Shown here piece after piece: positions 30,937 through 53,474 of a stretch of DNA of 64,000 bases. Made by a program: the position numbers and the translations under genes. The DNA comes from an uncultured archaeon (GTDB lineage Archaea; Thermoplasmatota; Penumbrarchaeia; JASLWR01), in NCBI GenBank assembly GCA_964430885.1, contig CAYSHM010000003.1, forward strand, positions 128,001 to 192,000, in the 5' to 3' direction. The stretch's first letter is position 1; every line of letters begins with the position of its first letter. Under the pieces are notes generated by a model that did no database searches, had not been told where the DNA came from, and saw only the letters and a program-made list of their open reading frames with translations.

Positions 30937-31059
30937 ATGACTATTTGATGAAAAACATATGTAAAATTACTGACATACCGCACTTAACCTGAAACATATT
31001 AGCATGTGCAATATTTAATTCTTCTGTGTTATGCTCCGAGAAAAGATTGTATTATAGAG

Positions 31060-31881: not shown

Positions 31882-32075
31882 TATTTCACTCCATTTTAGA
31901 TTGTATATTGACAATAGATATTGTATGGAATTATTCAAAGATATGGCTCATTTTCTTGAATATATATCTTTACACATTATTGGTTATAGGGAATGTATTT
32001 TATGGTTCAATACTACAAATGAATATTGGACCTGAAATATGATCACATAAGAGGAATTTTCCTTTCAGGTTACCA

Positions 32076-37221: not shown

Positions 37222-37273
37222 AAATTATCAATCAATAAACACATTAATAGAAAAATGAAAGGAGGAACTAGAC

Positions 37274-37456
37274 GTGAGTGAAATGGAAAAAAAGGTATTG
37301 GATGCAATGAAAGAAGCGGGTAAACCCGTAAGACCGGGCGACATCGCCAAGATGATCAATCTAGACAGCAAAGATGTATCCAAGGCTATCAAGAAATTGA
37401 AGAATGATGGGAGCGTTCATTCGCCCAAAAGGTGCTACTACTCAGTTAGCGAGTAA
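37274..37456 (+). CDS. Small winged-helix protein with SPKRCYY motif
   Basis: VLDAMKEAGKPVRPGDIAK...VSKAIKKLK...SPKRCYY; AGGAGG SD. Confidence 0.8.
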   Translation: MSEMEKKVLDAMKEAGKPVRPGDIAKMINLDSKDVSKAIKKLKNDGSVHSPKRCYYSVSE

Positions 37457-37624
37457 TTAGTCAGACTTGAAGTATTTGAGTCTAAAGAGCCAATTTATGA
37501 ATAAAACTGATAAAAATGAAAAAAGGAGAATTAGGTGAGAGTATTCCTGACTAAAGCACTTAGAGGAATGACCTACAAATAGTATAATACATATTGACAA
37601 TAAAATGTTCAAGGAGGAACTGTT

Positions 37625-38140
37625 ATGATAGATAAAAAGATGGTAAAAGCACTGAATAAACAACTGAACGCTGAACTGTATGCTTCATACCTATATTATT
37701 CCGCTTCTGCCTATTTGGAATCCATTAATTTTGGAGGATTCGCTCACTGGATGAGAGCACAGGCCATGGAAGAGATAGGGCACGCCCAGAGATTCTACAA
37801 CCATATAGTAGAGAGGGGCGGAGATGTAAAATTGGAGAAGATCGAACAGCCGCAAAAAAAGTGGAAGTCACTTCTAGAAACCGTAAAAGCCGCTTACGAT
37901 CACGAGGTGAAAGTGACCGGAATGATAAATAAACTTGTTGATCTGGCACAGAAGGAGAAAGACCATGCAACCTTCAATTTCCTTCAATGGTTCGTCATGG
38001 AACAGGTGGAAGAAGAAGAACAGACAAGCGAACTCATCGCCAAGCTTGAGATGATCGGCGATTCAGTCGGATCCATCCTGATGTACGATAAGAAGATGGG
38101 GGAACGACCAATCAAGGCATTTTGGCAGGCACCAAAATAA
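37625..38140 (+). CDS. ftn: Non-heme ferritin
   Basis: LNKQLNAELYASYLY, EEIGHA, HEVKVT, FLQWFVMEQVEEE ferroxidase residues. Confidence 0.95.
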   Translation: MIDKKMVKALNKQLNAELYASYLYYSASAYLESINFGGFAHWMRAQAMEEIGHAQRFYNHIVERGGDVKLEKIEQPQKKWKSLLETVKAAYDHEVKVTGMINKLVDLAQKEKDHATFNFLQWFVMEQVEEEEQTSELIAKLEMIGDSVGSILMYDKKMGERPIKAFWQAPK

Positions 38141-38163
38141 AAAGGTTTTCAAGCCTATATCAC

Positions 38164-38210
38164 TGATGCCCTCCGAGCATTTGGAGGGATCATTTTCTCT
38201 TTTTATTCTT
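38164..38210 (+). terminator. Hairpin plus T-rich tract after ftn
   Basis: CCCTCCGA-GCAT-TTGGAGGG stem, extended by TGAT/ATCA, followed by TTTTCTCTTTTTATTCTT. Confidence 0.6.
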
Positions 38211-38251
38211 TAACAACTGCATTATTTCAAATAATCATTACAGGTGACCAA

Positions 38252-38746
38252 ATGGATCTAACTGGATATGAGCTCAAAGATGTATTTATAACTGCCCTCA
38301 AATCAGAAAAGGAAAGTTATAGGGTGTATAAGAATCTAGCAAACATAGTGAACAACGCCTTTCTTAAGGATAAGCTAGAATTCCTTGCCAAAGAGGAAGT
38401 GAAGCATTATTCTTTTTTAGCCAAAGCCTTCGATAAATTGTTCAGTAAGAGCGACATTGAACTTCCTGAAAAGTCACCCATTCCCTTACCAGAAATAAAG
38501 ATCGATGATGAACTTATGGAAATCAGCGAAATTTTGAGCAGTGCCATGGAAGCTGAAAAGGCAGCAAGCAGATTTTATCTCAGTATGGCTAAACTGGTCA
38601 GGGATCATCACCTCATTTCCAAAACATTGAAATATCTGGCCCAGATGGAAATTGGGCATTACAAACTGCTGGAAATTGAGAGAGAAAACATAGCTGATTT
38701 CGAGAACTTTCAGGACGGATGGCCCCTGATGCATGTGGGACCCTGA
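38252..38746 (+). CDS. Rubrerythrin-like ferritin-superfamily diiron protein without a rubredoxin domain
   Basis: A..SE...Y, EEVKH, AE...FY, EIGHY; C-terminal MHVGP. Confidence 0.88.
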   Translation: MDLTGYELKDVFITALKSEKESYRVYKNLANIVNNAFLKDKLEFLAKEEVKHYSFLAKAFDKLFSKSDIELPEKSPIPLPEIKIDDELMEISEILSSAMEAEKAASRFYLSMAKLVRDHHLISKTLKYLAQMEIGHYKLLEIERENIADFENFQDGWPLMHVGP

Positions 38747-38856
38747 TATGAACTCTCCAATTCAGTCCTAAATCAATTGTTTCAGAACAAACATGCCAAT
38801 TTATTTATTCCTGGTGCAGATTCAATTAAGAAAAAGCTCTGAAGGAAGGAAGCAGA

Positions 38857-39345
38857 ATGATAGATGTTGTGGAAATACTGAAGAACGGCCACGGAGGCAT
38901 CGGGGAGAACAGCCTCATGGGATTGAACTTCATAAATGATATCAATGTGAGCGGATGGTCCGGAGGAATGAATATAAGCATGGTGGAAAAGAAGACCCAT
39001 TTCATGAAAGACCTGATACTTCCCCATTTCAGACAGGAGGAAACAGTGATCTATCTCCTCCGCAAGGATTTTGATCTTAACGATTATGCCTCGGATGTAA
39101 TAAAAAAGGTAGTTAAGGAGCATGAGTATTTCAGGAACAGGATCCAAGAGCTGCAGAATATGAGGGGTTCCCTTGAAATCTTCGACCTGGAGGTCTTTGT
39201 TCAATTCAGAAAGGAGTTCAATAAATTGATGGAGGGACTATTCAAACATGCCGAATACGAGGATACCCATCTATTCCCCCTTTTCAGAAGGATGCTGAAA
39301 CCTGAGCACATCCGATATATCGAAGATAAATGGAAAATGGGATGA
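38857..39345 (+). CDS. Hemerythrin-like (HHE) cation-binding protein, copy 1
   Basis: GH, PHFRQEE, KEH and KHAEYEDTHLFP. Confidence 0.85.
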   Translation: MIDVVEILKNGHGGIGENSLMGLNFINDINVSGWSGGMNISMVEKKTHFMKDLILPHFRQEETVIYLLRKDFDLNDYASDVIKKVVKEHEYFRNRIQELQNMRGSLEIFDLEVFVQFRKEFNKLMEGLFKHAEYEDTHLFPLFRRMLKPEHIRYIEDKWKMG

Positions 39346-39390
39346 AATATCCCTTCTATTCCATCATAGTGTTTGAAAAGGAGGCCTCAT

Positions 39391-39888
39391 ATGATAATAG
39401 ATGTAATAGAAATATTGAAGAATGGACACGGCGGTATTCAGGAAACCATACTTCTCCGGAAGAAATACATTGATTCTATTGGTATTGAAAGCGAATTGGG
39501 TACGGATGCAGTTAAGATACTTAAAAAAAAAATGGAGTTCTTGAACGATGTCATGATACCCCACTTCAGGCAGGAAGAAGTTGCTATTTTTTTAATTCGT
39601 AACGAAATAGATATGAAGACGACAGAGGGCGAGATAATTCGTAAGGTTTTGGAAGAGCATGTTGATTTCAGAGAAAGGATCGATGCCTTTATCGAGGACA
39701 CACTTATCAATACAAAGGAATCAATACAAATCCCTCTATTCAAGAATAAATTCAATAAACTTCTAAATGACATTTTGGAACACGCTGAATTTGAAGATGA
39801 AGAACTGTTTCCGATCATCAGGAACAGAATCAATCCAGGTCATATCAAGTATATCAAGGAAAAGTGGAATGAACTTAACATGATTTAG
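39391..39888 (+). CDS. Hemerythrin-like (HHE) cation-binding protein, copy 2
   Basis: GH, PHFRQEE, EEH and EHAEFEDEELFP; AGGAGG SD; tandem paralog of 38857-39345. Confidence 0.85.
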   Translation: MIIDVIEILKNGHGGIQETILLRKKYIDSIGIESELGTDAVKILKKKMEFLNDVMIPHFRQEEVAIFLIRNEIDMKTTEGEIIRKVLEEHVDFRERIDAFIEDTLINTKESIQIPLFKNKFNKLLNDILEHAEFEDEELFPIIRNRINPGHIKYIKEKWNELNMI

Positions 39889-39979
39889 AATAAATAAAAA
39901 AATAAATATCACAACTGATAATTATTAAAAAAACAATATTACTGAAAGATATTAAAAAGATGGTTTTTAGGTGATTGAA

Positions 39980-40435
39980 ATGGAAAAGTTCAATTCAGTG
40001 GAAGAAGCCCTGGACTTCGCTATAGTAAATGAAGAAGAAGCATATCAGTTCTATACTGAATTAGCAGATAATATGAAACTGGAATCAATGAAAAACGTTT
40101 TCCTTGGTTTTGCCAAGGAAGAATTGGGCCATAAGGAGAAATTAATGAAAATAAAAGCTGGTGAAGTAGCAAGCCCTCCTGAGAAAAAGGTAACCGATCT
40201 CAAGATCTCTGATTTTGTTGTAGATGTGCAGCCCTCTGACGATATGGATTACCAGGATGCTCTGATCTTGGCCATGAAAAAGGAGAAGGCAGCATTCAAA
40301 CTTTACACCAAGATGGCGGAGATCTCCGAGGATGCGGTACTGAAAAAGATATTCTTCTCTCTGGCCCAGGAAGAAGCAAAACATAAACTTAGATTCGAAA
40401 TCGAATACGACGATTATGTATTCAATGAAAATTGA
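39980..40435 (+). CDS. Rubrerythrin-like ferritin-superfamily diiron protein
   Basis: NEEEAYQFY, EELGH, KEKAAFKLY, EEAKH. Confidence 0.88.
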   Translation: MEKFNSVEEALDFAIVNEEEAYQFYTELADNMKLESMKNVFLGFAKEELGHKEKLMKIKAGEVASPPEKKVTDLKISDFVVDVQPSDDMDYQDALILAMKKEKAAFKLYTKMAEISEDAVLKKIFFSLAQEEAKHKLRFEIEYDDYVFNEN

Positions 40436-41309: not shown

Positions 41310-44300
41310 ATGCTTGCTAGAAAGATCATGATATTGTGCATATCAGCACTGCTTTTGATAAGTTCCGCCATATTGATAAGCGGAGAAAAGGATGACCACC
41401 CCATGACAGGTGATGGGACCCGAGCGTCCATTGGCCAGAAGTTCTATTTCAACAAGACCTTCAATATTGACCAATCTTGGAACACCGATGATATTTATGT
41501 TGTTGTGTTTGTTCAGAGCAACACCCAGGTGAACAAGAATATGCAGAACGATCCTGGCAGGAGCTACGATTCCGCCGAGGTCCTGCAATCCACCACCGAT
41601 TTCTTCACAGGGGTCCCTGCCGCAACCGGAGCGCAGAAAAGGGTCCTGGGAGAATGCTTTACAGCGACATGGTGCGGATACTGTCCCGGTTCTGTTGGAG
41701 CTCACGATCGTATCGCGAGCGATCCTGCCTTTTTCCCTGGGAGCTATTCCCTGATAGAGTGGCACGCTACCTCAAGCGACCACAATCTTGGAAATGCTGA
41801 CAGTAATGCCCGATTCCAGTACTATAACTGGGGCGGTGCGATCCCTTTCAGCACCTTTGACGGTGTAATAGGACATATCGGCGGAAGCGCAAACGGTAAT
41901 GAAACAAGCATTGATACCACATATAAGGGATATATCAACCAGAGAAAAGGTATCAGCAGCCCAGTTTCCCTGGAAACCTTCGGACACAAAGGAGCCAACA
42001 GCGGATGGATAAATGTCTCCCTGGAAGTTCTGGACATCCCCGACGAGGACCTTTACAAGGTTCAGTTCGTTGTCGTGGAAGACCTCAGAGTGGACAAGAA
42101 CCTAAACCCATGGAACCCCAACAGCCCCCAGGCCATCTACAGATATACTGCCAGGGATGTACTTACACCGGAAACGGTAAACCTGGGAAATTCACAGCCG
42201 GACGTTTCCATAGACTACCCCGCCGGCGGTGAAGTGATAACTGGCAATCTCCATATTAACTGGACGGCAACAGACCCTGAGGATGACGACATCACCATAA
42301 GCATTGATTACAGAAAGGGAAATGGTATTTGGGCCAATATAGATTCAGATCTGACCAATACCGGAACATATGTATGGGATACAACTACAGTTGTTGACGG
42401 CGATGATTACAGGGTCAGGGTAGTTGGCACGGATGCAGTAGGAAAGCAGAGAGAAGCTCTCCTAGGATCAACATTCACCATAAAGAACGATTTCGGCCCG
42501 ACTGTACAGCTCACTTCGCCCCTGGGAGGCGAGGTGTGGAACGGCACTCAGACCATAACATGGATGGCCGAAGATGACGGCGGAGACGGAAATGATGATA
42601 TGGATGCGGAAGCATCAGCAGACATAACCATAAGATTGGATTTTACACGTAACGACGGGGCGGACTACTCCCCCATATACTCAGGTCTTGCCAACACAGG
42701 AAGCTATGAATGGGATACCAACACCACACTGTCCTGGAACGCTGATACCTACAAGGTAAAGATTATGGCTACTGATACAAAGGGCCAGACCGCCTGGGCA
42801 ATATCCACGGATACCTTCGAGATCAATAATGAGAAGAATTTCCGGGATGAGGATAACGATAATATGCCTGATGAGTGGGAGGAGCTATATGACGATGTTG
42901 AGGTAGGCGAGAACGATGCCATGGACGATGCAGACTCCGATGGTCTGAGAAATATTGAGGAATACCATTTTGGAACAGATCCCAGCGATGATGATACCGA
43001 CGGAGACGGTATGACCGACGGATGGGAGATAAATAATGAACTGAACGTCTTGGAAGCCGATTCAAATCTCGACAGCGACGGAGACGGACTCATCAATCTA
43101 CAGGAGTTCCAGATCGGCACCTACGCCAACCGATGGGACAGCGAGAACGATGGAATCCCCGACGGATGGGAAGTAAACAACGGACTCATTCCAATGGGAT
43201 TTGATTCTGGAAATGATGATGATGAGGATGATCTGGATAACCTTGAGGAGTATCTCAATGGAACAGACCCCAATAATGATGATTCTGACGAGGACAAGAT
43301 ACTAGATGGTTGGGAAGTGAAGTATGGATTCGACCCTCTGGACGATGATGATGCATCCGAGGATTTCGATGGGGACGGATTGACCAATCTCCAGGAATTC
43401 CAGATCAATACCAAACCCACCGACGGGGACACGGATATGGACATCATGACCGACGGATGGGAGATCCAATATGACCTGGACCCCCTTATGGGCAATGATG
43501 CAGGAAGCGATCCCGATGGTGACCTCATGACAAATGTGCAGGAGTTCGAGAACGGTACAAATCCGCTTATAGCCGATACCGACGGAGATCAGATCAAAGA
43601 CGGATGGGAGCTGGATAACGGACTTGACCCCTTACTGAACACCGACGCGGCCCTGGACAACGACAACGATGACTTATCCAACCTTGATGAGTTCAAGAAG
43701 GATCTGGACCCAAATAACAACGATACGGACTCAGACGGTATGCCTGACGGATGGGAACTCGATTATGACCTTGATCCCAAGAACCCATCAGACGGCGACG
43801 ACGACCCTGACGAGGATGAACTCACCAATCTCCAGGAATACTTCAAGGGCTTGAATCCCAATGAGATCGATAACCCTGACTATGTTCCCAAGGACGATGA
43901 TGATGACAAACCTCTGCCCAAACCAAAGGACAACAAGGACACTAACGATGACAGTGGAAGCAGTTCTACACTCTGGATAATCGTGATCATTGTAGTAATA
44001 TTCATTATTGCCGTCATAGGCGTACTGGTTGCGATCATGGTCAAGAAGGGAAAGAAGGGCGACCTTGAGGGAGAGGACGAGATGGGACGTGTTGACGAGG
44101 ACGGGCATATTATAACTGCCGATGAGGAATATCAGAAACTATATGGTCCCGCACCGGCATCCCCCGAACCAGAGATCAGCGAAGAACCCCTTTATGAAGA
44201 CAACATATATACCCAGAATGAACCTGCCACCCAACCATATGAGGAAGAGGTGCATACTGAAGAGGTTCAGCAGCAGGCCCCAGTAAAGGAATCACCAGCA

Positions 44301-44414
44301 CCAGTTCGGCAGCCTTTACCAAAACCGGTAAAGAAATCACCCCCTCCCCCTCCGGCGAAAAAGGGTGTGAAGAAGATGCCCAAACCCCTCCCTAAACCTC
44401 CTGTGAGAAAGTAG
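41310..44414 (+). CDS. Secreted single-pass protein: permuted Omp28-like thioredoxin domain, two Ig-like domains, long DxDGD Ca-binding repeat array, TM and Pro/Lys-rich tail
   Basis: Signal peptide; FTATWCGYCP; PxGGE...W...NTGxYxWDT Ig units; many DxDGDGxxDGWE...LDP repeats; TM LWIIVIIVVIFIIAVIGVLVAIMV. Confidence 0.85.
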   Translation: MLARKIMILCISALLLISSAILISGEKDDHPMTGDGTRASIGQKFYFNKTFNIDQSWNTDDIYVVVFVQSNTQVNKNMQNDPGRSYDSAEVLQSTTDFFTGVPAATGAQKRVLGECFTATWCGYCPGSVGAHDRIASDPAFFPGSYSLIEWHATSSDHNLGNADSNARFQYYNWGGAIPFSTFDGVIGHIGGSANGNETSIDTTYKGYINQRKGISSPVSLETFGHKGANSGWINVSLEVLDIPDEDLYKVQFVVVEDLRVDKNLNPWNPNSPQAIYRYTARDVLTPETVNLGNSQPDVSIDYPAGGEVITGNLHINWTATDPEDDDITISIDYRKGNGIWANIDSDLTNTGTYVWDTTTVVDGDDYRVRVVGTDAVGKQREALLGSTFTIKNDFGPTVQLTSPLGGEVWNGTQTITWMAEDDGGDGNDDMDAEASADITIRLDFTRNDGADYSPIYSGLANTGSYEWDTNTTLSWNADTYKVKIMATDTKGQTAWAISTDTFEINNEKNFRDEDNDNMPDEWEELYDDVEVGENDAMDDADSDGLRNIEEYHFGTDPSDDDTDGDGMTDGWEINNELNVLEADSNLDSDGDGLINLQEFQIGTYANRWDSENDGIPDGWEVNNGLIPMGFDSGNDDDEDDLDNLEEYLNGTDPNNDDSDEDKILDGWEVKYGFDPLDDDDASEDFDGDGLTNLQEFQINTKPTDGDTDMDIMTDGWEIQYDLDPLMGNDAGSDPDGDLMTNVQEFENGTNPLIADTDGDQIKDGWELDNGLDPLLNTDAALDNDNDDLSNLDEFKKDLDPNNNDTDSDGMPDGWELDYDLDPKNPSDGDDDPDEDELTNLQEYFKGLNPNEIDNPDYVPKDDDDDKPLPKPKDNKDTNDDSGSSSTLWIIVIIVVIFIIAVIGVLVAIMVKKGKKGDLEGEDEMGRVDEDGHIITADEEYQKLYGPAPASPEPEISEEPLYEDNIYTQNEPATQPYEEEVHTEEVQQQAPVKESPAPVRQPLPKPVKKSPPPPPAKKGVKKMPKPLPKPPVRK

Positions 44415-44445: not shown

Positions 44446-44480
44446 GCGGGGAATCATTTCCCCGCCCTTCTTTTTTGTTT
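44446..44480 (+). terminator. Hairpin plus poly-T terminator
   Basis: GCGGGGAA-TCAT-TTCCCCGC followed by CCTTCTTTTTTGTTT. Confidence 0.7.
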
Positions 44481-44677: not shown

Positions 44678-45703
44678 ATGAAAAACGATACTATAGGAAT
44701 TATTGAAACAAGGGGATTGCTGGATGCCTTTGTGGTAGCCGATGCCATAAGCAAGGGAACTCGTGCCAGATTGATAGGACGGCATATGCTGGGCGACGGC
44801 CTTGTCACACTCATTATCAAGGGCAGGAAGGATGTTGTCAGATCAGCCCTGGAAATCGCTGAAGCTTCTGCGGCTTACACCCGGAGTTTTTTAACCCGCA
44901 AGCAGATGCTTTTTGAGGAGGAGGATTGGAGCTGCGAAGATGACCCTGAAAATTTTAAGGCTGAAGAGGAGCGGGTAGACCTGTTCACACGTGAACAGGA
45001 CCGAACCATTGAACAACCACTTTCGGTCCCGGAAAGGGCCCACGTAATAGAGGAAAAGGGAAAATTCCTACGTGCGCCAGAAAAAACAGGGAAAATGTCC
45101 AAAGCCAGGGAAATAATGCTCAGAAGAGAAAAAATGGCAAGTTACATCTCATCGAATATGGAAAAGGACATAAAAACAGGAATCAATGATCTGGAGAAAG
45201 AATTTTCTGGCATCTCCCGTGCCACTATTCGACTGGACCTTAAAGAACTAATGGACAAGGGCATTGTGAAAAAGATAGGGCGAACCAGCGGAGCTTACTA
45301 TATCATTGCGGATATGAAAATGGAAGGAACAGAAACCAATGATTTCAAAGAAAAAGTAAAAAAGGGTATTAAGGCAAACATTAAAGGGAAAAAAGCTTGG
45401 AGAATAGATAAAAAGAGCCTTAAAATTCCGAAGAAACAAGAGAAAGCTAAGAAAAGCACTACCGATTCCCAAATAATACATTCTAAGAAAAAACTCAGAT
45501 CATCTGAAAGAAAGGAAAGAATGCTTGATTATATCGTTTCCCAATGCAATGCCGGAGAAAAGGTTTCTATCACCGATCTGGAGATCATCTTCACTGATGT
45601 TACAAGAAGGACCTTACAGTTGGACCTCCAGCATCTGAAGAAAAAGGGCCGTATAATCAAAAAGGGACAGACCAGGGCCTGTCATTGGGTACCAAAGAAT
45701 TGA
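44678..45703 (+). CDS. BMC (microcompartment hexamer shell) domain fused to two winged-helix domains
   Basis: N-terminus TIGIIETRGLLDAFVVADAISKG...GDGLVTLIIKG...VRSALE aligns with PduA/EutM. Two wHTH units: ISRATIRLDLKELMDKGIVKKIG and VTRRTLQLDLQHLKKKGRIIKKG. Confidence 0.8.
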   Translation: MKNDTIGIIETRGLLDAFVVADAISKGTRARLIGRHMLGDGLVTLIIKGRKDVVRSALEIAEASAAYTRSFLTRKQMLFEEEDWSCEDDPENFKAEEERVDLFTREQDRTIEQPLSVPERAHVIEEKGKFLRAPEKTGKMSKAREIMLRREKMASYISSNMEKDIKTGINDLEKEFSGISRATIRLDLKELMDKGIVKKIGRTSGAYYIIADMKMEGTETNDFKEKVKKGIKANIKGKKAWRIDKKSLKIPKKQEKAKKSTTDSQIIHSKKKLRSSERKERMLDYIVSQCNAGEKVSITDLEIIFTDVTRRTLQLDLQHLKKKGRIIKKGQTRACHWVPKN

Positions 45704-45784
45704 TACACTATTTAACACTATGATAAATACCCAAAAACAATACAATTCTGCTGCCTGTTGAAATATTGCGGAGATAGATTCATT

Positions 45785-46681
45785 ATGGAGCGAATTCAGG
45801 CATTGATAGATAACCTACGGGAATTGGAAAAAAAAGCCCGGAAAAACCCTGGTATGGAAGCGTCTCATAATTTCCATCCAAGCAAGGATTACGAAACTTA
45901 TAACCTGGGGCACTATGAATTCGGCAATGCATTATCCAAAATGGGACCTGGGGTCTTTTTAGAACTTTTCCATTGGAGCCTTGAAAACGACCATTACTTC
46001 GGTGATGTGAAAATGCCCGGTGTCCACAGGAGTAAATGCTACTGGGTAGAAAAAAGCAGGTCTTTGAGAACTGTCATCCTCGAGCTCCTGATAAGGGAAA
46101 ATGAATTCAACATATGGAAAAATGAGGATTTATTGGAAATGCTGACACATCCATCCTGGGAAGAGCAGGCAATCAATATCTGCGACGGTGATCATTCAGA
46201 GGGAAGGTGGGAAAAACTGATGGCCAGGATAATTGTAAATTGGAGAGGGGACAGGAATAAAATTCTAAAGCATTTCGATGGGAAAAAAGCAGGTGAATTT
46301 GCCAATGATATGATAGACCCTTCCAGGCAGTTCTGCATAGACCGAGTTACCCTTCAATCTGACGGGGACAATATGGTATTAAATATAAATTTCAAACACA
46401 ATCTATCCATGAATTATTCAATTTTAATTGGAGTGTTCAGAAAGAAGGATGGTGTGGTATTAAGTGCTTTTGATACCATTTTGAACTATCACGGCAAGGA
46501 TGCCCCCCGACAATTTACTGGCGGGTCCGAGTTCGGCAGGGCGGAAGTGAAAATATACGATAATGAATTGATTACTCGGATCAGTATGGAAACCTGGAAA
46601 AAGTATAATGTGGAGAAAAAGGAACTGGGCATTAAAGTGAAGCTGTATCAGCTGGGAGAATTCAAACTATTCCCCTTTTGA
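45785..46681 (+). CDS. Hypothetical protein (helical N-half, beta-rich C-half)
   Basis: Long ORF of about 300 aa with GGAG upstream of the ATG at 45785; no motif recognised. Confidence 0.65.
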   Translation: MERIQALIDNLRELEKKARKNPGMEASHNFHPSKDYETYNLGHYEFGNALSKMGPGVFLELFHWSLENDHYFGDVKMPGVHRSKCYWVEKSRSLRTVILELLIRENEFNIWKNEDLLEMLTHPSWEEQAINICDGDHSEGRWEKLMARIIVNWRGDRNKILKHFDGKKAGEFANDMIDPSRQFCIDRVTLQSDGDNMVLNINFKHNLSMNYSILIGVFRKKDGVVLSAFDTILNYHGKDAPRQFTGGSEFGRAEVKIYDNELITRISMETWKKYNVEKKELGIKVKLYQLGEFKLFPF

Positions 46682-47745: not shown

Positions 47746-50700
47746 TCATTCCACTTCTATCCTGCTGCAGATGGGTGCAAAATCAACGTTTATTCTATTC
47801 TCGGTCAAAATACGGATATCAGATATTGACATTGGTGTTATGGATACCTTTTCATTATGAAAGGTGTAAAACAAATAGGCCTTTACTTCCCTATCAGGAT
47901 ATACCTCCCTGACAATGTGGTAATAGATGCTCAGCTGTTTTCGGTACTCCTTTTCGGTGTCCTTATCAATATCAGTCTTATAATCGATTATCTCCACCAG
48001 TTCATCAGTAATATGCAGGAGATCTATTATTCCCTTGAAAATAACTCGCCTTCGCCCTACTGTTGTGGATAGGAAGCATTCCTTTTCCGGCTCCTTTTTT
48101 CCCTTAAGTTTATCGATGAGGTTCTTGACCCTCCACTCATCCACAACTTCAGGATGAACCGCGTGACCATTTGCGTATTTCTCGCCGAACAAATGAACTT
48201 TTGTCCCGAATTCCGGTCCGCGGCCCGATATATCCTTGGACTTATCCCATTCTTTATCATCCATCAAATAATGGCAGCTGACCTTCACAGGTGCAGGTTC
48301 ATCCGGAGGTGAAAAGCCGAATATCTCCAGTTCTTCGGAAGGTATACTGACATCCGAAATAATGGGTTCCACCGTCTGCTTTTCAAGGTTCAGATCCTTG
48401 AAAAATGTTGTTTCCTTACCCTTTTGAGAAGTGAAGAAGAGATGCCTCTCGGCCCTGGTTACCGCAACGTACATAAGCCTCCTCTCCTCGTCGTAGTCCT
48501 TTCCCGCACATTTACTCAGCACATCCCATCGCCAATTATGATAGAAATAGGAATATTTCACTCCCTGAGATAAAAATAAACTCTTCTGCCTGAGCCCCAA
48601 GGGCACCCTGAATTCCATAGGGAAACTTCTTCCTCCGCCTTTCCATGCGTCAGGAATAATCACAACAGGGTATTCCAGACCCTTGGATTTGTGTATGGTC
48701 TGGATCTTGAACACATCATCCCCGGCTCCCGGGTCTACCTCATAGGTTTCCCCCGATTCAATGTTGTCCTCAATGAAATTAATAATTTCACCTGTATTCA
48801 TAAAAGAGGATTCAAAACTGGTCTTGAGGACTTCAATTATCTTCTCAGTATAACCGTCGTTCAATCCATATCTGTCGAATACCTTGAAAGCTACCGAGCC
48901 CAAGCTAAAGGCGCTTTTTCCATAATATCTAGATTTATTAACCGCTTCAATCCCATCGGGACCATCATCTTTATCATCACTATTATCGTCGCCATCACCA
49001 TCATTTTTCCAATCATTGCCCACTTCGGCCCGCAGTTCATTCAGAAACCGAAGCATGTTTTTTGGATATCTTACATCCTCATTCTGAAAGATATATCTGA
49101 TCTCGGGAAAGGTATAACCTGCCTCATCAAGCACCAATGACCAAGCTCTTTTTGAAGAGGGATCTTTCAGCAATCTGAGCCAGGCCAGAAGAATCAAGGC
49201 GGGTTTGGTCCTGAAAAGCTCCACTCCTCCCTCATAGACTGCTGGTATGCCGTAGGCCCTTGCACTGTTAAGGAGCTCAAGGCCCACCCTTCTCTTTCTG
49301 ACAAGTACAGCGATGTCACCCAATCTGACCCTTCTATTGCCGCCGCCTTCCCTGACAAAGCAGTCGGGATATACCCCCAGATGAATATTATTATCACCTG
49401 CATCAGCTGAATCATCATTGTTCTGACAGGAGCCTACCAGACCGGTTATAAGACCTAATATGCAGTCATATTGATCATCGGCAACATAGGCCCCAATGAC
49501 CGTGGGAACATTGACATTTACCGCCTTCAAATGAGTAATCTTCTTCCTTACGGTTTCAGTATCAAAATCCTCGTTATTTGAATACTTTAGAAGCAGCGCG
49601 CCCTGGGAAAAATCTATTATTGATTGACTGGACCGGTAATTCTCTGAAAGATATATTTCTTCAATGGGGCAGACCGGATAGTTGATTCTCCTGAAATCAC
49701 TGTTCAATTCGTACTTGTAGTCGTTAAGACGGTTGCCGAATTCAAGGATGTTTTCTACTGAGGCATACTGGAATGCAAATATGCTCTGCTTCCAATCTCC
49801 AACTGCACAGATATTCCCAGTGGATGAAAGGAGCATCGCCAGCTTCAGTTGAATCTCATTCGTATCCTGAAACTCATCTATCATAACATAGCTGAAAGAG
49901 GTGCTGCTTCTGAGCTTATGGTCCTGGCATAGAACGACAAAAGTAAACATCATGATAAAGGCGAAGTTAAGATAGTTGCGGGACAGAGCATATTCTATAT
50001 ACTGGAAATAAACATCGTGGATGAAGGATTTCAGCTGGTCCCGGTTCTCGGTGAAAACCTTAAAAGCCCATTTATCATCTATGGATTTCGTCCCCCTGGC
50101 CCCCCTGAGTTCCTCAATGGACGGAGCACCAGGTATATAATTTCTGGACCCGTAAGAATTCAGAGATTCCCTTAGCTTGGATTGTTTACTGCTTTTTTCA
50201 CCCTGTACCGGAGTGTTCAGCTCTTTGAATATCTTGAAAAAAGCATCGAAATCTCCATCTAGATATTTATCCGAATTGCGATACCAACCTTTTCTTTTGG
50301 GAAAAATGCCTTTGGCACACAAGGAAGTTATTAGATACAACAGGTCAGTATGATCACCCAATATTCGAAAAAAATCATTGTATTCCGGATGTTCGACTAT
50401 GAAGCCCTGCATGAAATTCCTGAACTCACCCTTCTCCATTATGGAATTCTCAAGTATTCTGGTAGAAGAGGATATGTGTTCAGATATACCCAGGTAGAAA
50501 GGAGCGAGGATCCCGTGCTGGCTTAATAAAGAAAAACATAGACTGTGAAATGTGCATATGGGGGCGTCCCTAAGGGAGGACGAGTCCCTTTGGCAAATGG
50601 ATATTATCCTTTCCTTCATGTTCTCGGCAGCATTATTTGTGAAGGTGATGAGAAGTATATCTTCCGGGTCTAGGTCCTTATATCTCAGAAGATTGTCATA

Positions 50701-50814
50701 TCTGAGGGAAATGGTAAATGTCTTTCCGGTTCCCGGACCTGCATCTGCTAGCACAATGCCGTCCATGGCATCTATCAACAGCTGCTGGTTTTCATTGGCC
50801 TTCGGTTCACCCAT
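47746..50814 (-). CDS. UvrD/SF1A helicase with C-terminal RecB-type PD-(D/E)xK nuclease (AddA/AdnB-like)
   Basis: AGPGTGKT, TFTNNAA, TFHS, DEFQD, GDWKQSIF, NYRS, TIHKSKGLEY, EERRLMYVAVTRA; nuclease GIIDLL...IIDYKTD...QLSIY. Confidence 0.93.
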   Translation of the reverse strand: MGEPKANENQQLLIDAMDGIVLADAGPGTGKTFTISLRYDNLLRYKDLDPEDILLITFTNNAAENMKERIISICQRDSSSLRDAPICTFHSLCFSLLSQHGILAPFYLGISEHISSSTRILENSIMEKGEFRNFMQGFIVEHPEYNDFFRILGDHTDLLYLITSLCAKGIFPKRKGWYRNSDKYLDGDFDAFFKIFKELNTPVQGEKSSKQSKLRESLNSYGSRNYIPGAPSIEELRGARGTKSIDDKWAFKVFTENRDQLKSFIHDVYFQYIEYALSRNYLNFAFIMMFTFVVLCQDHKLRSSTSFSYVMIDEFQDTNEIQLKLAMLLSSTGNICAVGDWKQSIFAFQYASVENILEFGNRLNDYKYELNSDFRRINYPVCPIEEIYLSENYRSSQSIIDFSQGALLLKYSNNEDFDTETVRKKITHLKAVNVNVPTVIGAYVADDQYDCILGLITGLVGSCQNNDDSADAGDNNIHLGVYPDCFVREGGGNRRVRLGDIAVLVRKRRVGLELLNSARAYGIPAVYEGGVELFRTKPALILLAWLRLLKDPSSKRAWSLVLDEAGYTFPEIRYIFQNEDVRYPKNMLRFLNELRAEVGNDWKNDGDGDDNSDDKDDGPDGIEAVNKSRYYGKSAFSLGSVAFKVFDRYGLNDGYTEKIIEVLKTSFESSFMNTGEIINFIEDNIESGETYEVDPGAGDDVFKIQTIHKSKGLEYPVVIIPDAWKGGGRSFPMEFRVPLGLRQKSLFLSQGVKYSYFYHNWRWDVLSKCAGKDYDEERRLMYVAVTRAERHLFFTSQKGKETTFFKDLNLEKQTVEPIISDVSIPSEELEIFGFSPPDEPAPVKVSCHYLMDDKEWDKSKDISGRGPEFGTKVHLFGEKYANGHAVHPEVVDEWRVKNLIDKLKGKKEPEKECFLSTTVGRRRVIFKGIIDLLHITDELVEIIDYKTDIDKDTEKEYRKQLSIYYHIVREVYPDREVKAYLFYTFHNEKVSITPMSISDIRILTENRINVDFAPICSRIEVE

Positions 50815-53413
50815 ATCTTATCACCAGGTCCTTGTTCTCGATCTCGTCCAGATCAACTGCTCCCACTGGGAAGCCTTCCGCCATATATCTGTTCAACATC
50901 TCCAATTGCTCTTTCAGAAAGGCATCGAAGGCATTGAGATCTTCAACAAATAGATGCGCATTCCTGAAACGAAGCAGGAACTTCAGAACACTGTAGCTGG
51001 AATTTCTTACCTTCTTCGTATCCCCTGCCATGTCCACACAGAAATTCTCAAAAGCCTTGGTTATTACATGACATGAGAGTTCTTCCTCACCGCAATCTGG
51101 CATGGAGTTCTGTGAAAAAAAGGTATTGTAACCTTCAAAACCCAGCTTGTCCAGAAGCTCCCTGCGGGCTTTTGAGCTTTTGAGCCATTCAAATACATCC
51201 CGTTCTGGCACCACTTGGTGAAAGTTAAAGGGAAAATATTTGACACTGATGAGATTATCCTTCATATCGCCACCGCCCGCTAGTGATCCATCTATGTTCT
51301 CCAGGAGATGGCAGAATGTAAATTTCAACAGCCTTCCGGGATAGATGCTGCGGAGATGGGATAGATACATTCGAATCTGAAAATCCGGTTTTTTTGATAT
51401 CGCCACCACATCCGAACCTCTTATTATCTCTCCTATGCTCTTCTTCCTTCCTGTTTTATAGTCCACTATCCATTGAGATGACGGGATAAGATCTACCTTC
51501 CCGTTGGAACCCAGCCCCCTATTGTAAAAATTCATCTCAGTAAAATTCGAATGCACAGCTTTATTGAAATGCTTCGAAAATGTGTTGGTTTGGGCCCTTT
51601 TTTCAAATCCCTTCACAGAAACTCCGGACAGATCCAAATTGGTGTCTATGAAAGTTATCAGGTTCTCAACAGCCACGGTGAACTGGGTACGGTATTGGGA
51701 CAGGGTCAGGCGGTCGACATATGGCTCCATGAGATTGACCATGATATCTATGAACTCATCAGGACCCATTTCCTTAACAAAATGGGGGAAATTGAGATAA
51801 AACTCAGCAAAATCATGAAGGAGGTTCCCTCTCTGAAAGTATAGCTTATCCTCCCCTTCGACCAATCTGGAGAAGAAGTAATCTTTGGGGCTGAAGGCAA
51901 GAACATTCAATCCGGATTGACTTAGGGTCTTAACAGGATAAGTAGTGCTGGTGACATCGTATTGTTCCTTTTTAAATACTGGCCTGTTCCCGCAGGCATT
52001 CTTTTTGGATCGAATTTTATACTTGACGCTTTCCAGTTCGGAGAAGCTCTTGAATGAGTCGCTTGTAAATTCCGAGAAATAATGACACGGCACTATTCTC
52101 TCACCCATGTAACTATCTTTTACCATATATTGCTGTGAAGCTCCGTTCTGCAGGAGTAACTGAAAATTTCTCAGATTCCTATTATCTCTCTCTTTCTTAT
52201 CCACCCAGGGCCGGTTGTCCGCTCTTGGAGTCCAGGAGGAATCCATACCCATGTAGAAAATTAGAGGCCGGTCTATAAAGCCTGAAGTATTGGGAGAAGC
52301 AAGAAGAACCCCTCTGCTGGGCTTGTCACGGGACTGCTCATATGCATTCAGATAGAACTCAATACTATCAAGATTCCTTTTGGATGTGATCTCATTCAGG
52401 AACCCGATCTCTTCTATTACAGCTCTCAATTCGCCCATGTAAACATCCAGCCACTCCTCGAACTCCTCCAGTGCTTCATGGAAGGTCATTTCATTCATGG
52501 TGGACAGCTTGTTCTTGATATCATCCAGATCCGCCAGGTCCAGAGGCGATACAAACATTGATCTGTGGGTTCGGGGCAAAGCTTTTCCCAAATGCAGAAG
52601 TATGGGGGAAACCTCTTTTACCCTTATACCCCGCCTTCCAGCTAGACGCAGTAATGCCAGGAATGTCCGGAGATCCTCCAGATCCGCCAACTTCTCTTTT
52701 CTCATTATTGGCACGTTCCTAGCTCGTAGGGCCGATTCCACAAGATGCATATATCGGCTTCCCTCCTTTGCCACCACTGCGGCATCCGAAGTAATGCATT
52801 CGGTCAAGCTTCCGACCACCGCCTGTACAATATCTCGGGTAGTTCCGAATATCCCGAAAGGCGGAAGTTCAATCCATTCATCCTCGAATAGAGTGACCTT
52901 CTCGAAATTATCAGGCAAAATGAGTTTATCCAATTCCTGGAACTGTTCCAGACCAATAACTGCCACACTCTTACCTTCAGGCAAGCGGGACATCATCATC
53001 ACACTGTATTGATTAGCAGCGGACATCATCAAATCCAATATCTTGGCACTAATCGGAGTATTATACTCATTATAATGCAGGATACTGCGGGGATCACCTG
53101 TCTCCCTCCAGCAGCTGATGATGTTTTCCATGAGATATGATGCCATCTTCCAGTGTATCTTTTCAGAATTGATTATTCGGAGAAAAAGCGCCCTGTCAGA
53201 CTCAAGCTTCTCCATGTGATAATTACCCAGTGCCCAGCGTTTTGGGGTTGTGGCAAAATATCCCAATCGTGCACCTCCCCATCTTACACAAAGGGCATCA
53301 TTTAGAGGCGCATCCACCGATAAAACAATATCAAAATCCTTTACCCTTTCGTATATGGATTCAATGGAACGTGCTTTCCTCATCTTCAGTGGGATGAACT
53401 GCTTTTCGGCCAT
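50807..53413 (-). CDS. AddB/AdnA-like protein: degenerate helicase-like N-terminus plus PD-(D/E)xK nuclease
   Basis: LSQSGLN...GNLLHDFAE...GKVDL...IVDYKTG...QIRMY; no Walker A; overlaps the helicase gene by 8 bp. Confidence 0.85.
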   Translation of the reverse strand: MAEKQFIPLKMRKARSIESIYERVKDFDIVLSVDAPLNDALCVRWGGARLGYFATTPKRWALGNYHMEKLESDRALFLRIINSEKIHWKMASYLMENIISCWRETGDPRSILHYNEYNTPISAKILDLMMSAANQYSVMMMSRLPEGKSVAVIGLEQFQELDKLILPDNFEKVTLFEDEWIELPPFGIFGTTRDIVQAVVGSLTECITSDAAVVAKEGSRYMHLVESALRARNVPIMRKEKLADLEDLRTFLALLRLAGRRGIRVKEVSPILLHLGKALPRTHRSMFVSPLDLADLDDIKNKLSTMNEMTFHEALEEFEEWLDVYMGELRAVIEEIGFLNEITSKRNLDSIEFYLNAYEQSRDKPSRGVLLASPNTSGFIDRPLIFYMGMDSSWTPRADNRPWVDKKERDNRNLRNFQLLLQNGASQQYMVKDSYMGERIVPCHYFSEFTSDSFKSFSELESVKYKIRSKKNACGNRPVFKKEQYDVTSTTYPVKTLSQSGLNVLAFSPKDYFFSRLVEGEDKLYFQRGNLLHDFAEFYLNFPHFVKEMGPDEFIDIMVNLMEPYVDRLTLSQYRTQFTVAVENLITFIDTNLDLSGVSVKGFEKRAQTNTFSKHFNKAVHSNFTEMNFYNRGLGSNGKVDLIPSSQWIVDYKTGRKKSIGEIIRGSDVVAISKKPDFQIRMYLSHLRSIYPGRLLKFTFCHLLENIDGSLAGGGDMKDNLISVKYFPFNFHQVVPERDVFEWLKSSKARRELLDKLGFEGYNTFFSQNSMPDCGEEELSCHVITKAFENFCVDMAGDTKKVRNSSYSVLKFLLRFRNAHLFVEDLNAFDAFLKEQLEMLNRYMAEGFPVGAVDLDEIENKDLVIRYG

Positions 53414-53474
53414 AGGAACATCATTTTAGATTGGATTAATATTGAGCACTATAAGCAAGAATTAGGTAATCAGC

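What the first reader, a model, noticed from the sequence alone, without database searches (positions are those of the whole stretch)
44678..45703. Orphan BMC shell domain fused to two winged-helix domains in an archaeon: candidate hexameric DNA-binding scaffold
Seen: residues ~1-75 match the BMC-H consensus (GIIETRGL..A...ADAxxK...IG...GxGLVTxxxxG....V..A) and keep the DxxxK edge motif (DAISK). The C-terminal VIxRP motif, whose Arg supports hexamer-hexamer tiling in PduA, is absent. An acidic linker, a first wHTH, a Lys-rich linker and a second homologous wHTH follow. No other shell gene (BMC-T, BMC-P) or BMC signature enzyme is in this window. Known: BMC-H domains form hexamers, microcompartments are essentially bacterial, and EutK is a known BMC plus single-HTH fusion inside eut loci. 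Inference: a non-tiling hexamer would display 12 wHTH domains and could bridge or organise DNA, or act as a pore-ligand-sensing regulator. That would be a shell fold repurposed outside any organelle.
Basis: partly seen in the sequence, partly recalled or inferred. Interest (0 to 1): 0.85.

Follow-up and report, generated by a model that had tools for sequence, protein, structure and literature searches.

The report
Microcompartment shell protein fused to DNA-binding domains
This archaeal gene joins a microcompartment shell domain to two winged-helix DNA-binding domains; it is not an orphan but an extra copy of a shell-cluster gene in a genome that carries a full sugar-phosphate microcompartment.

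Summary
ORF 44678-45703 (+, 341 aa) has a complete BMC-H domain (PF00936 39 bits, cut-off 24.5; predicted fold rmsd 1.2 A to EutM). After it come an acidic linker, a DeoR-like wHTH, a Lys-rich linker and a second, homologous wHTH.

"Orphan" holds only for the window. The genome is archaeal, but contig C6 carries a complete sugar-phosphate-utilisation microcompartment locus. Contig C26 carries a shell-only triad: BMC-P, a BMC-T-like gene and a paralogous BMC-wHTH gene. The triad recurs in all 5 distinct loci seen. A sister genome is the MAG with accession prefix JASLWR01, and a 2025 preprint already reports archaeal microcompartments in order JASLWR01.

The window gene is a fast-evolving, genome-specific duplicate of the triad gene. 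It keeps the edge Lys but lacks both inter-hexamer motifs of facet-forming BMC-H. Its wHTH is not EutK-type; it is the module found on Fic and AlbA_2 proteins.

Best reading (about 0.45): a specialised shell-associated hexamer that displays nucleic-acid-binding arms on the cytosolic face of a DNA-salvage organelle. Rivals are a regulator, a free DNA scaffold or a decaying copy. New variant of a known kind; hexamer formation and DNA binding were not tested.

The parts
44446..44475 (+). Terminator-like hairpin plus T-run after the upstream TSP3-repeat surface-protein gene. It marks the start of a separate transcription unit for the BMC-wHTH gene.
   Evidence: 8-pair stem with 6 G-C pairs, then CCTTCTTTTT. 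This is a bacterial-type pattern scan; an archaeal role is inferred.
44678..45703 (+). BMC-H::wHTH::wHTH gene (P0001, 341 aa)
   Evidence: It assembles identically in two run-level assemblies, which may both be the source of this DNA.
44678..44917 (+). BMC-H domain, residues 1-80. The edge Lys is kept (DAISK). KAAN and (P/A)RPH are not kept. The pore loop reads GDG.
44918..45097 (+). Acidic disordered linker, residues 81-140 (net charge -8)
   Evidence: pLDDT below 50
45098..45313 (+). wHTH1, residues 141-212, DeoR-like
   Evidence: HTH_DeoR 23.9 bits against a cut-off of 21. The H-H-H-E-E pattern is present but pLDDT is only 38-56. Weak match to the C-terminal part of PADLOC SoFic.
45314..45499 (+). 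Lys-rich disordered linker, residues 213-274 (net charge +15, 35.5% K+R)
45500..45700 (+). wHTH2, residues 275-341, homologous to wHTH1 and to the single wHTH of the triad paralog
   Evidence: Domain model pLDDT 89.1. Winged-helix structural matches: DIP2311 C-terminal domain, DsrD, Zalpha.
45758..46681 (+). Orphan ORF of 307 aa, 55 bp downstream on the same strand, possibly co-transcribed. No family assigned.
   Evidence: No Pfam hit and no PADLOC hit. Not found in G001, G002, G003 or G005 with this query. No terminator-like site on the + strand between the two genes.

Best explanation
P0001 is a genome-specific, fast-evolving duplicate of a conserved satellite-locus shell gene. That gene is a BMC-H domain fused through a disordered linker to a winged helix. 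It belongs to the archaeal sugar-phosphate-utilisation (deoxyribose-5-phosphate, DNA-salvage) microcompartment of a Thermoplasmatota lineage that is very probably order JASLWR01.

Proposed mechanism:
- The BMC domain forms a hexamer (inferred).
- The hexamer associates with the shell as a minor, specialised tile rather than a bulk facet protein (inferred).
- BMC-H termini lie on the outward, concave face, so the two wHTH domains per chain and the polycationic linker project into the cytosol.
- There they bind nucleic acid (inferred). This would tether DNA to the organelle, or the organelle to the nucleoid.

The closest parallels are the DNA-binding K/R-rich tail on Hodarchaeales AMC-P2 and, architecturally, EutK.

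Shown here: the domain architecture, the folds, the paralogy, the genomic linkage of the family to shell genes, and the co-occurrence with microcompartment loci. Not shown: hexamer formation, shell incorporation and DNA binding.
For: (1) The genome has a full metabolosome locus at C6:78594-88507. It holds a Tdp-like BMC, three BMC-P, AldDH, a PduS-like protein, BMC-Ts, TIM, RpiB, BMC-H and a DeoC aldolase. aIF2-alpha and PAC2 lie about 4.8 kb downstream, so the contig is archaeal. The locus is collinear in G001 and G002.

(2) The paralog P0002 (BMC domain, basic linker, one wHTH) is 31% identical to P0001 overall, E 1e-30. It is the last gene of a co-oriented BMC-P / BMC-T-like / BMC-wHTH triad. 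The triad, with a convergent M24 peptidase gene, occurs in 5 of 5 distinct loci seen: G000, G001, G002, G003 and metagenome contig L052. A dedicated pentamer gene in the same cluster argues that the family acts in closed shells.

(3) Phyletic pattern. In 401 genomes of the phylum, the BMC part of the profile matched only 5: family f1 (4 of 4, counting G000) and G005. BMC-wHTH fusions occurred only in f1.

(4) P0001 groups with P0002 in the BMC-domain tree, support 83/87.

(5) P0001 keeps the edge Lys. Type-1 orthologs keep K..N (KGAN against canonical KAAN).

(6) Kirst and Kerfeld 2019 (PMC6787980, passages read) state that the concave side faces outward and that BMC-H termini are naturally external.

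(7) This genome alone has three polycationic appendages on shell-family proteins: the P0006 BMC-P tail (+19), the P0002 linker (+17) and P0001 linker 2 (+15). Du et al. 2025 (PMC12747264; sections 5 and 6 and passages read) report that such a tail on Hodarchaeales AMC-P2 binds DNA and RNA. They propose DNA capture for an SPU-type organelle.

(8) The wHTH fold is that of DNA-binding winged helices.
Against: - Both inter-hexamer motifs that Sutter et al. 2021 give for facet-forming BMC-H, KAAN and (P/A)RPH (PMC8217296, passage read), are missing from P0001. It has SKGTR and FEEE, with a Glu where the Arg should be. No member of the BMC-wHTH family keeps the Arg, so tiling into a shell is uncertain.
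- P0001 lies in no shell cluster. Its neighbours are unrelated or orphan genes.
- P0001 sits on a very long branch (1.51 against a median of 0.066) and was found in this genome only.
- wHTH1 is modelled at low confidence.
- G005 has a main locus but no BMC-wHTH gene. G003 (88% complete) has the triad but no main locus was found. So the fusion and the organelle are not strictly coupled.
- The Lys-rich BMC-P tail and the strongly basic linkers are absent from G001 and G002. Polycation-mediated binding is therefore not a conserved family trait.
- C26 is a compositional outlier in the bin, with a tetranucleotide correlation of 0.917.
- No oligomer or DNA-binding test could be run.
Confidence: 0.45

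Rival explanations
1. Transcription regulator. The BMC domain serves only as an oligomerisation or ligand-sensing module, or reports how much shell subunit remains unassembled. The wHTH domains bind specific operators to control microcompartment or other genes.
For: - DeoR-like wHTH domains are typical of transcription factors.
- PADLOC's AbiEi model matches weakly. That AbiEi is an autoregulating antitoxin is recalled, not tested.
- No recognisable regulator was found among the genes of the C6 locus that were scanned. A bacterial SPU locus carries a GntR-type regulator (PMC11585597, passage read).
- The tiling motifs are lost.
- P0001 has its own transcription unit away from shell genes.
Against: - No motif is shared between the upstream regions of P0001, the C26 triad and the C6 locus. 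The one 12-mer found lies in a coding region in G003 and is not conserved. This is a weak test.
- Strongly polycationic disordered linkers suggest non-specific binding.
- The family's conserved position is inside a shell-gene operon with a pentamer gene.
- The same wHTH type sits on Fic and AlbA_2/HATPase_c_4 proteins, which are not classical operator-binding regulators.
Confidence: 0.25
2. One reading: a free, non-tiling hexamer that bridges or organises DNA independently of any organelle, that is, a nucleoid-associated scaffold with 12 wHTH domains.
For: - Arg is replaced by Glu at the tiling position and KAAN is absent.
- The gene's location is isolated.
- There are two wHTH domains per chain and a +15 linker.
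- In sister genomes a further 'type-2' paralog has a degenerate BMC domain (below the Pfam cut-off in G001's copy) and lies beside pdxS-like genes, not shell genes. This shows that the family does drift away from shell contexts.
Against: - The genome carries a complete microcompartment and a shell triad that contains the closest paralog.
- The family is confined to lineages that have BMC genes.
- The edge Lys is retained.
- P0001 occurs in one genome only, which is odd for a nucleoid organiser.
Confidence: 0.12
3. A decaying or functionless recent duplicate. The ORF is intact but the gene is drifting and has no selected role.
For: - Very long branch.
- Found in a single genome.
- Interface motifs are lost.
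- It is followed by an orphan ORF, in a region whose MBL-fold gene was also not found in the sister genomes.
Against: - The frame is intact over 341 aa.
- The BMC domain and wHTH2 fold confidently.
- An extra wHTH has been retained.
- GC (0.428) matches the genome (0.435).
- The sequence is identical in four samples of one study. Two of those runs may be the source of this DNA, so this is not independent support.
Confidence: 0.12

Closest known systems
EutK (ethanolamine-utilisation shell protein: BMC-H domain plus a C-terminal helix-turn-helix)
   Same: An N-terminal BMC-H domain is followed by a C-terminal HTH-type nucleic-acid-binding domain. The function of that domain is still unknown: 'mysterious ... 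no functional role' (PMC5821096, passage read).
   Different: - The EutK_C family PF16365 finds nothing in this genome at E <= 1, while the control set scores above the cut-off in 2 of 14 genomes.
- The NCBIfam EutK equivalog scores 32 bits against a cut-off of 218.
- There is no eut locus here; the organelle is of the SPU type.
- P0001 has two wHTH domains and long charged linkers, and the host is archaeal.

The fusion therefore looks independent.
Archaeal microcompartments (AMC) of Du et al. 2025, bioRxiv 10.1101/2025.11.08.687404
   Same: - The organelle is SPU-type (DERA, AldDH, RpiB, TIM), and the preprint says AMCs were detected in Thermoplasmatota order JASLWR01 with an extra Tdp gene.
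- The C6 locus fits that description.
- The preprint's theme of DNA-binding appendages on the shell is echoed here.
   Different: - In the preprint the DNA-binding element is a K/R-rich disordered tail on a pentamer (AMC-P2) in Hodarchaeales. Here it is a folded wHTH on a hexamer-type protein encoded in a satellite triad.
- The preprint's main text has no occurrence of 'helix-turn-helix', 'winged' or 'satellite'. Its supplements could not be opened.
Non-basal ('specialised') BMC-H with C-terminal extensions, and satellite loci (Sutter et al. 2021)
   Same: - C-terminal extensions of up to 200 residues are reported.
- Such proteins lack KAAN and (P/A)RPH, and BMC-H outside the basal group are said to have more specialised functions.
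[quoted passage not shown]
   Different: - The extension here is 261 residues with two folded DNA-binding domains.
- That catalogue covers bacteria; 'archaea' does not occur in its main text.
- Its passages on extensions that I read do not name DNA-binding fusions.
C-terminal wHTH of Fic/DOC proteins and of AlbA_2 + HATPase_c_4 proteins (DIP2311-like)
   Same: - The wHTH of the BMC fusions matches the C-termini of such proteins in 45 other genomes of the phylum.
- The best structural match of wHTH2 is the DIP2311 C-terminal domain, 3lmm.
- The sequence profile also reaches Fido and Fic chains 8uqu and 8cil.
   Different: The N-terminal partner is a BMC shell domain, not a Fic or Schlafen/AlbA_2 domain.

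Membership tests
BMC-H (PF00936 shell hexamer family) | Pfam BMC domain above the gathering score | tested here: met
   39 bits against 24.5, residues 6-65. The A2 profile scores 58.7 bits on CsoS1A over profile positions 5-86.
BMC-H (PF00936 shell hexamer family) | Complete, non-permuted beta-alpha-beta-beta-alpha-beta fold | tested here: met
   AF2 model: strands 5-12, 31-39, 42-49 and 72-79; helices 14-27 and 51-68; pLDDT 79-92. Foldseek target-normalised TM 0.76-0.85 and rmsd about 1.2 A to EutM, PduA and the HO shell BMC-H.
BMC-H (PF00936 shell hexamer family) | Forms cyclic hexamers | not testable with these tools
No oligomer model was made.
Basal (facet-forming) BMC-H, in the sense of Sutter et al. 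2021 | KAAN inter-hexamer motif | tested here: not met
   P0001 has SKGTR; only the Lys is kept. Canonical BMC-H of these genomes have KAAK or KAAN. The motif definition comes from PMC8217296.
Basal (facet-forming) BMC-H, in the sense of Sutter et al. 2021 | (P/A)RPH inter-hexamer motif | tested here: not met
   P0001 has F-E-E-E where the canonical proteins have P-R-P-H. Type-1 orthologs have P-N-M/L-S.
EutK | C-terminal EutK_C domain (PF16365) | tested here: not met
   No match in the genome at E <= 1; the control set scores above the cut-off in 2 of 14 genomes. EutK_C is also not among the Pfam hits at E <= 10.
EutK | NCBIfam EutK equivalog score, and a eut locus context | tested here: not met
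   32 bits against a cut-off of 218. The neighbours are not eut genes.
Winged helix-turn-helix (DeoR-like, PF08220) | Family match above the cut-off | tested here: met
   wHTH1 scores 23.9 bits against 21. The G001 type-1 ortholog scores 24 bits. wHTH2 alone has no Pfam hit but is homologous to wHTH1 (E 2e-13).
Winged helix-turn-helix (DeoR-like, PF08220) | Three helices plus a beta-hairpin wing | tested here: met
   wHTH2 model at pLDDT 89.1 with H-H-H-E-E. Matches to DIP2311-C, DsrD and Zalpha at rmsd about 2 A, but Foldseek E-values are only 3e-3 or weaker.
Winged helix-turn-helix (DeoR-like, PF08220) | Binds DNA | not testable with these tools
   Needs EMSA or a similar assay.
SPU-type metabolosome / archaeal microcompartment (for the genome's C6 locus) | DeoC-family aldolase (PF01791) and RpiB (PF02502) together with AldDH, BMC-H and BMC-P in one locus | tested here: met
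   The locus is collinear in G001 and G002. The criterion is taken from PMC11585597 and PMC8217296.
Satellite BMC locus (Sutter et al. 2021) | [quoted passage not shown] | tested here: met
   P0001 on C3 and the triad on C26 lie on contigs other than the main locus on C6. The triad's flanks in G001 hold no cargo enzymes.

The most novel reading that the evidence does not exclude
Two archaeal phyla have independently equipped the shell of a DNA-salvage (deoxyribose-phosphate) microcompartment with nucleic-acid-binding appendages. Hodarchaeales use a disordered K/R tail on a pentamer. This Thermoplasmatota lineage uses folded winged helices on a hexamer-type protein, encoded with its own pentamer and trimer-like genes. 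The conserved P / T-like / H-wHTH triad would then build, or decorate, a DNA-tethered shell. Such a shell could capture substrate DNA or anchor and partition the organelle on the chromosome. P0001, with 12 wHTH domains per hexamer and a +15 linker, would be an amplified version of that tether.
Probability: 0.2. Interest if true: 0.75.

Novelty: new variant of a known kind. Interest (0 to 1): 0.5.

Why it matters
Microcompartments were long held to be bacterial only (abstract of PMC6620236, seen in the listing). A 2025 preprint moved them into Archaea and proposed that their shells capture DNA.

A folded DNA-binding domain fused to a shell hexamer protein, found in a different archaeal phylum and conserved next to pentamer and trimer-like genes, would be an independent natural case of the shell-meets-DNA idea. 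It would also give a tractable handle on the unsolved question of what EutK-like HTH domains do.

For engineering, it is a natural template for displaying folded DNA-binding modules on the outer face of BMC tiles.

If the gene is instead a regulator, it would be a rare case of a shell fold recruited as a sensor or oligomerisation domain.

Tried and rejected
- **Shared operator motif.** I compared the upstream regions of P0001, the C26 triad, the C6 locus and the G001 and G003 triads for shared k-mers. The only 12-mer shared with P0001's upstream region lies in a coding region in G003, is absent from G001's triad locus and occurs elsewhere in the genome. I rejected it as chance.
- **Synteny with the 'type-2' paralogs.** None exists between the window and the type-2 loci of G001-G003. 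The pdxS-like neighbours of type-2 lie on G000 C11 with no BMC-wHTH gene beside them. P0001 is therefore not that ortholog in place.
- **wHTH tree.** P0001's two copies and P0002 fall in an unresolved polytomy, so the order of the wHTH duplication is unknown.
- **RNA evidence.** No RNA holder was listed: 4 DNA runs from one study. This says nothing about expression.
- **Laid contigs.** The stretch is identical in X1 and X2, which may be the source, and in fragments in X3 and X4. This shows only that the assembly is consistent.
- **Word-indexed protein searches.** P0001 found itself only, among 4284 candidates. The A2 profile found 3 proteins among 8000 scored candidates. The G001 type-1 protein found 11 among 529. 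These searches are limited by length window and word index, so they do not prove absence elsewhere.
- **Collection scans.** Genome contigs gave 2 relatives from 38 pattern matches, and both are G001 and G003 themselves. Metagenome contigs gave 1 from 254. Viral contigs gave 0 from 6.
- **Defence-island reading of the neighbourhood.** PADLOC gives only generic UvrD/GajB-like and phospholipase hits, and no system could be assigned.
- **Flank test for an insertion.** The MBL-fold gene was not found in G001-G003 at E <= 1e-10. The CxxCxxCC gene was found in all 3. No boundaries could be defined.
- **Literature.** No held paper contains both 'BMC domain' and 'winged helix'. 'JASLWR01' occurs only in the Du et al. 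preprint. One search was badly phrased and useless.
- **Supplements.** Supplementary Figs 1 and 11 and Table 2 of Du et al. may already show the JASLWR01 satellite genes, and I could not check.
- **Other archaeal lineages.** Hodarchaeales and SpSt-1190 genomes could not be searched for BMC-wHTH fusions, because I had no handle outside this phylum.
Full report
**1. The observation**

The ORF at 44678..45703 (+) encodes 341 residues.

- Pfam places a BMC domain at residues 6-65: 39 bits against a gathering score of 24.5. It also places a DeoR-like HTH at residues 175-200: 23.9 bits against 21.
- NCBIfam gives only sub-threshold matches to shell-protein equivalogs: CsoS1 41 bits against 166, and EutK 32 against 218.
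- An AlphaFold2 model built on an 8-sequence alignment gives a complete, non-permuted BMC fold. Strands are at 5-12, 31-39, 42-49 and 72-79, helices at 14-27 and 51-68, with block pLDDT of 79-92. It also gives a confident C-terminal winged helix (275-339), a low-confidence first winged helix (142-211, pLDDT 38-56) and disordered linkers.
- Foldseek puts the BMC part on EutM 4axj (E 3.9e-7, target-normalised TM 0.78, rmsd 1.2 A over 74 columns), PduA 3ngk and the Haliangium shell hexamer 5v74. 193 matches have E <= 0.001.
- The two wHTH domains are homologous: 38% identity over 61 residues, E 2e-13.
- A model of wHTH2 alone, built on a 19-sequence alignment, has pLDDT 89.1. It superposes on winged-helix domains: the DIP2311 C-terminal domain 3lmm (E 3.4e-3), DsrD and Zalpha. 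No match reaches E <= 0.001.
- Linker 1 has net charge -8. Linker 2 has net charge +15 and is 35.5% K+R.

**2. The organism is archaeal**

- The SSU rRNA on contig C2 scores 1503.7 bits with the archaeal model and 1097.7 with the bacterial one.
- The window's contig, C3, carries archaeosortase A (124.9 bits, cut-off 75) and an archaeal-type non-discriminating AspRS (552.9 bits, cut-off 368.4).
- C3 and C6 have tetranucleotide profiles that correlate 0.996 and 0.997 with the genome mean. C26 is lower, at 0.917.
- A sister genome of the same family, G001, is the record JASLWR010000022.1, titled 'Thermoplasmatota archaeon isolate ETNP2_MAG_1'. The match coordinates are the same.

**3. The gene is not an orphan**

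Genome-wide there are 7 PF00936 matches (12 candidates scored) and 4 PF03319 matches (5 scored).

C6:78594-88507 holds, in one orientation:
- a Tdp-like BMC protein
- an unassigned 263-aa gene
- BMC-P
- an aldehyde dehydrogenase
- a PduS/RnfC-like flavo-iron-sulfur protein
- a tandem BMC-T
- a BMC-P with a Lys-rich tail
- triosephosphate isomerase
- RpiB
- a third BMC-P
- a canonical BMC-H with DAMVKAAK and IPRPH
- a DeoC-family aldolase

aIF2-alpha and a PAC2 proteasome chaperone follow about 4.8 kb downstream, so this contig is archaeal too.

DeoC plus RpiB is the signature of sugar-phosphate-utilisation (SPU) metabolosomes, which are thought to process deoxyribose 5-phosphate from DNA breakdown (PMC11585597 and PMC8217296, passages read). 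The locus is collinear in G001 and G002.

**4. A paralog sits in a shell-only triad**

On C26 (44222-45999, 506 bp from the contig end) three co-oriented genes encode a BMC-P, a divergent tandem BMC-T-like protein, and P0002. P0002 is a 259-aa protein with an N-terminal BMC domain, a basic linker (net +17) and one wHTH. P0001 and P0002 are 31% identical overall (E 1e-30), with most of the similarity in the BMC domain and the wHTH.

The same triad, followed by a convergent M24 peptidase gene, is present in G001, G002, G003 and one metagenome contig. That makes 5 of 5 distinct loci. In G001 its flanks hold sulfotransferase, PKD, MMPL and ABC genes and no cargo enzyme. It is thus a satellite locus in the sense of Sutter et al. 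2021.

**5. Distribution**

- With P0001 as query, 5 of 41 related genomes matched: 3 of 3 other members of family f1, 1 of 1 in f3, and 0 of 24 in f7.
- With the type-1 profile, 50 of 401 genomes of the phylum matched. The BMC part matched in only 5: G000-G003 and G005. The other 45 matched only the wHTH part, inside proteins of about 190-720 aa. Those I inspected are Fic proteins, or AlbA_2 + HATPase_c_4 proteins that carry the wHTH at their C-terminus.
- G001, G002 and G003 also have a second, 'type-2' BMC-wHTH gene (217-218 aa). Its BMC domain is degenerate: G001's copy has no Pfam BMC hit and scores below the cut-off in the genome scan, while G002's copy scores 25.3 bits. It lies beside pdxS-like genes. 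It was not found in G000.
- G005 has a main locus but no fusion. In G003 (88% complete) no main locus was found.
- Database searches found the family to be small: 11 clusters for type-1 and 2 besides P0001 for the A2 profile, none of them named. These searches are limited by their word index. The exhaustive search never became available.

**6. Where P0001 comes from**

In a tree of 14 BMC domains, the BMC-wHTH proteins form a clade separated from the canonical BMC-H with 100/100 support. P0001 pairs with the same genome's P0002 (83/87) on a very long branch: 1.51 against a median of 0.066.

Its GC (0.428) is that of the genome (0.435). It has its own upstream terminator-like boundary and may be co-transcribed with an orphan 307-aa ORF.

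I read it as an in-genome duplicate of the triad gene that gained a second wHTH and diverged fast. The wHTH tree could not order the duplication.

**7. Can it tile?**

Sutter et al. 2021 give KAAN and (P/A)RPH as the inter-hexamer motifs of basal, facet-forming BMC-H, and say that other BMC-H have more specialised functions. In the alignment:

| Protein group | KAAN position | (P/A)RPH position |
|---|---|---|
| Canonical BMC-H of these genomes | KAAK or KAAN | PRPH |
| Type-1 orthologs | KGAN or KGSN | PNMS, PNIS or PNLS |
| P0002 | RSVK | PSMP |
| P0001 | KGTR | FEEE |
| Type-2 | neither motif kept | neither motif kept |

So P0001 fails both tests for a bulk facet protein but keeps the edge Lys. 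The pore loop has Asp (GDG) where the canonical proteins have GGG.

**8. Mechanism**

BMC-H termini lie on the concave face, which faces outward in shells (PMC6787980). A shell-bound P0001 hexamer would therefore hold 12 wHTH domains and six +15 linkers in the cytosol.

Du et al. 2025 show that a K/R-rich tail on the Hodarchaeales pentamer AMC-P2 binds DNA and RNA. They propose DNA capture by an SPU-type organelle.

In G000 the middle BMC-P of the main locus has just such a tail: 66 residues, net +19. Its orthologs in G001 and G002 (118-120 aa) do not. The linker of P0002 is far more basic than in its orthologs (+17 against +2 to +4).

This genome thus shows three independent polycationic additions to shell-family proteins, on top of the family-wide wHTH. 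I take this as the best, though indirect, support for a shell-associated nucleic-acid-binding role (confidence 0.45).

The alternatives are:
- a transcription regulator that uses the BMC domain for oligomerisation or sensing (0.25)
- a drifting duplicate with no selected role (0.12)

**9. Comparison with what is known**

EutK is the textbook BMC + HTH fusion, and the role of its HTH is unknown (PMC5821096). The present wHTH does not belong to EutK_C: PF16365 gives no match while the control set does score. There is no eut context either. So this works like EutK in architecture but is not a member of that family.

Archaeal microcompartments in order JASLWR01 are already reported (Du et al. 2025, sections 5 and 6 read). 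The preprint notes an extra Tdp gene, one fewer BMC-H and no PTAC. I saw no PTAC among the locus genes I scanned, but I did not search for it specifically.

No held paper contains both 'BMC domain' and 'winged helix'.

**10. Verdict**

What remains is a new variant of a known kind. A small, lineage-restricted family of BMC-H::wHTH proteins is encoded with dedicated pentamer and trimer-like genes in archaea that carry a DNA-salvage microcompartment. The window gene is an amplified, fast-evolving copy of that family's gene. Interest 0.5.

Noticed in passing
G000:C6:78594-88507 (L014 10595 to L015 507): A complete SPU-type microcompartment locus in an archaeal genome: Tdp-like BMC, an unassigned 263-aa gene, 3 BMC-P, AldDH, PduS-like protein, BMC-Ts, TIM, RpiB, BMC-H and DeoC. 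It is collinear in G001 and G002. G002 has an extra BMC-H after BMC-Ts.
   Followed up: partly
L014:15836-16348 (G000:C6:83835-84347), protein P0006: The middle BMC-P carries a 66-residue Lys-rich tail (net +19, 39% K+R) in this genome only. The orthologs are 120 aa in G001 and 118 aa in G002, with no such tail. It resembles the DNA-binding tail of Hodarchaeales AMC-P2.
   Followed up: partly
L049:9488-10141(-), L050:9433-10086(+), L051:6285-6935(-): A 'type-2' BMC-wHTH paralog (217-218 aa) with a degenerate BMC domain that has lost the edge D..K and the Arg. It sits next to pdxS-like 302-aa, 171-aa and 387-aa genes in G001-G003. In G000 those neighbours lie on C11:8643-11268 with no such gene beside them.
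   Followed up: partly
L053:8380-9792 (G001) and L014:19069 to L015:507 (G000): The DeoC aldolase of the locus is 471-484 aa long. The DeoC domain occupies only residues 261-462, and an N-terminal stretch of about 260 residues has no Pfam family.
   Followed up: no
L056 (G005:C56:11500-13278): A same-class MAG (82% complete, 980 contigs) has an EutC gene (244 bits) followed by a BMC-domain gene at a contig end. This looks like an 'EUT module' satellite. Whether the contig truly belongs to the archaeon was not checked.
   Followed up: no
G003 (88% complete): G003 has the satellite triad and the type-2 gene, but no canonical BMC-H, BMC-Ts or main locus was found with PF00936 or PF03319.
   Followed up: no
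window 36034-40435: A run of oxidative-stress and iron genes on the + strand: a flavodiiron-like protein (ODP + flavodoxin), a ferritin, two rubrerythrin-like proteins and two hemerythrin-domain proteins.
   Followed up: no
window 47746-54239 (-): A UvrD-type helicase with a C-terminal PD-(D/E)XK nuclease (1022 aa), then an 868-aa PD-(D/E)XK protein, which together look like an AddAB pair, and then a patatin-like phospholipase. PADLOC gives only generic GajB-like and phospholipase hits.
   Followed up: partly
window 8480-9535 (+): A 352-aa protein matches only the C-terminal part of FtsZ (77 bits against a cut-off of 295). It may be a divergent tubulin-family protein.
   Followed up: no
window 1058-5854, 26938-35036, 41310-44414; L014:2478-10239: There are many very large surface proteins with PKD, FG-GAP, Big and TSP3 repeats, alongside archaeosortase A at window 13621-14601.
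   Followed up: no
G000:C26 (46.5 kb): This contig has a lower tetranucleotide correlation with the bin (0.917) than most others and a higher GC (0.466). Its triad + M24 synteny is nevertheless shared with sister genomes on long contigs.
   Followed up: partly
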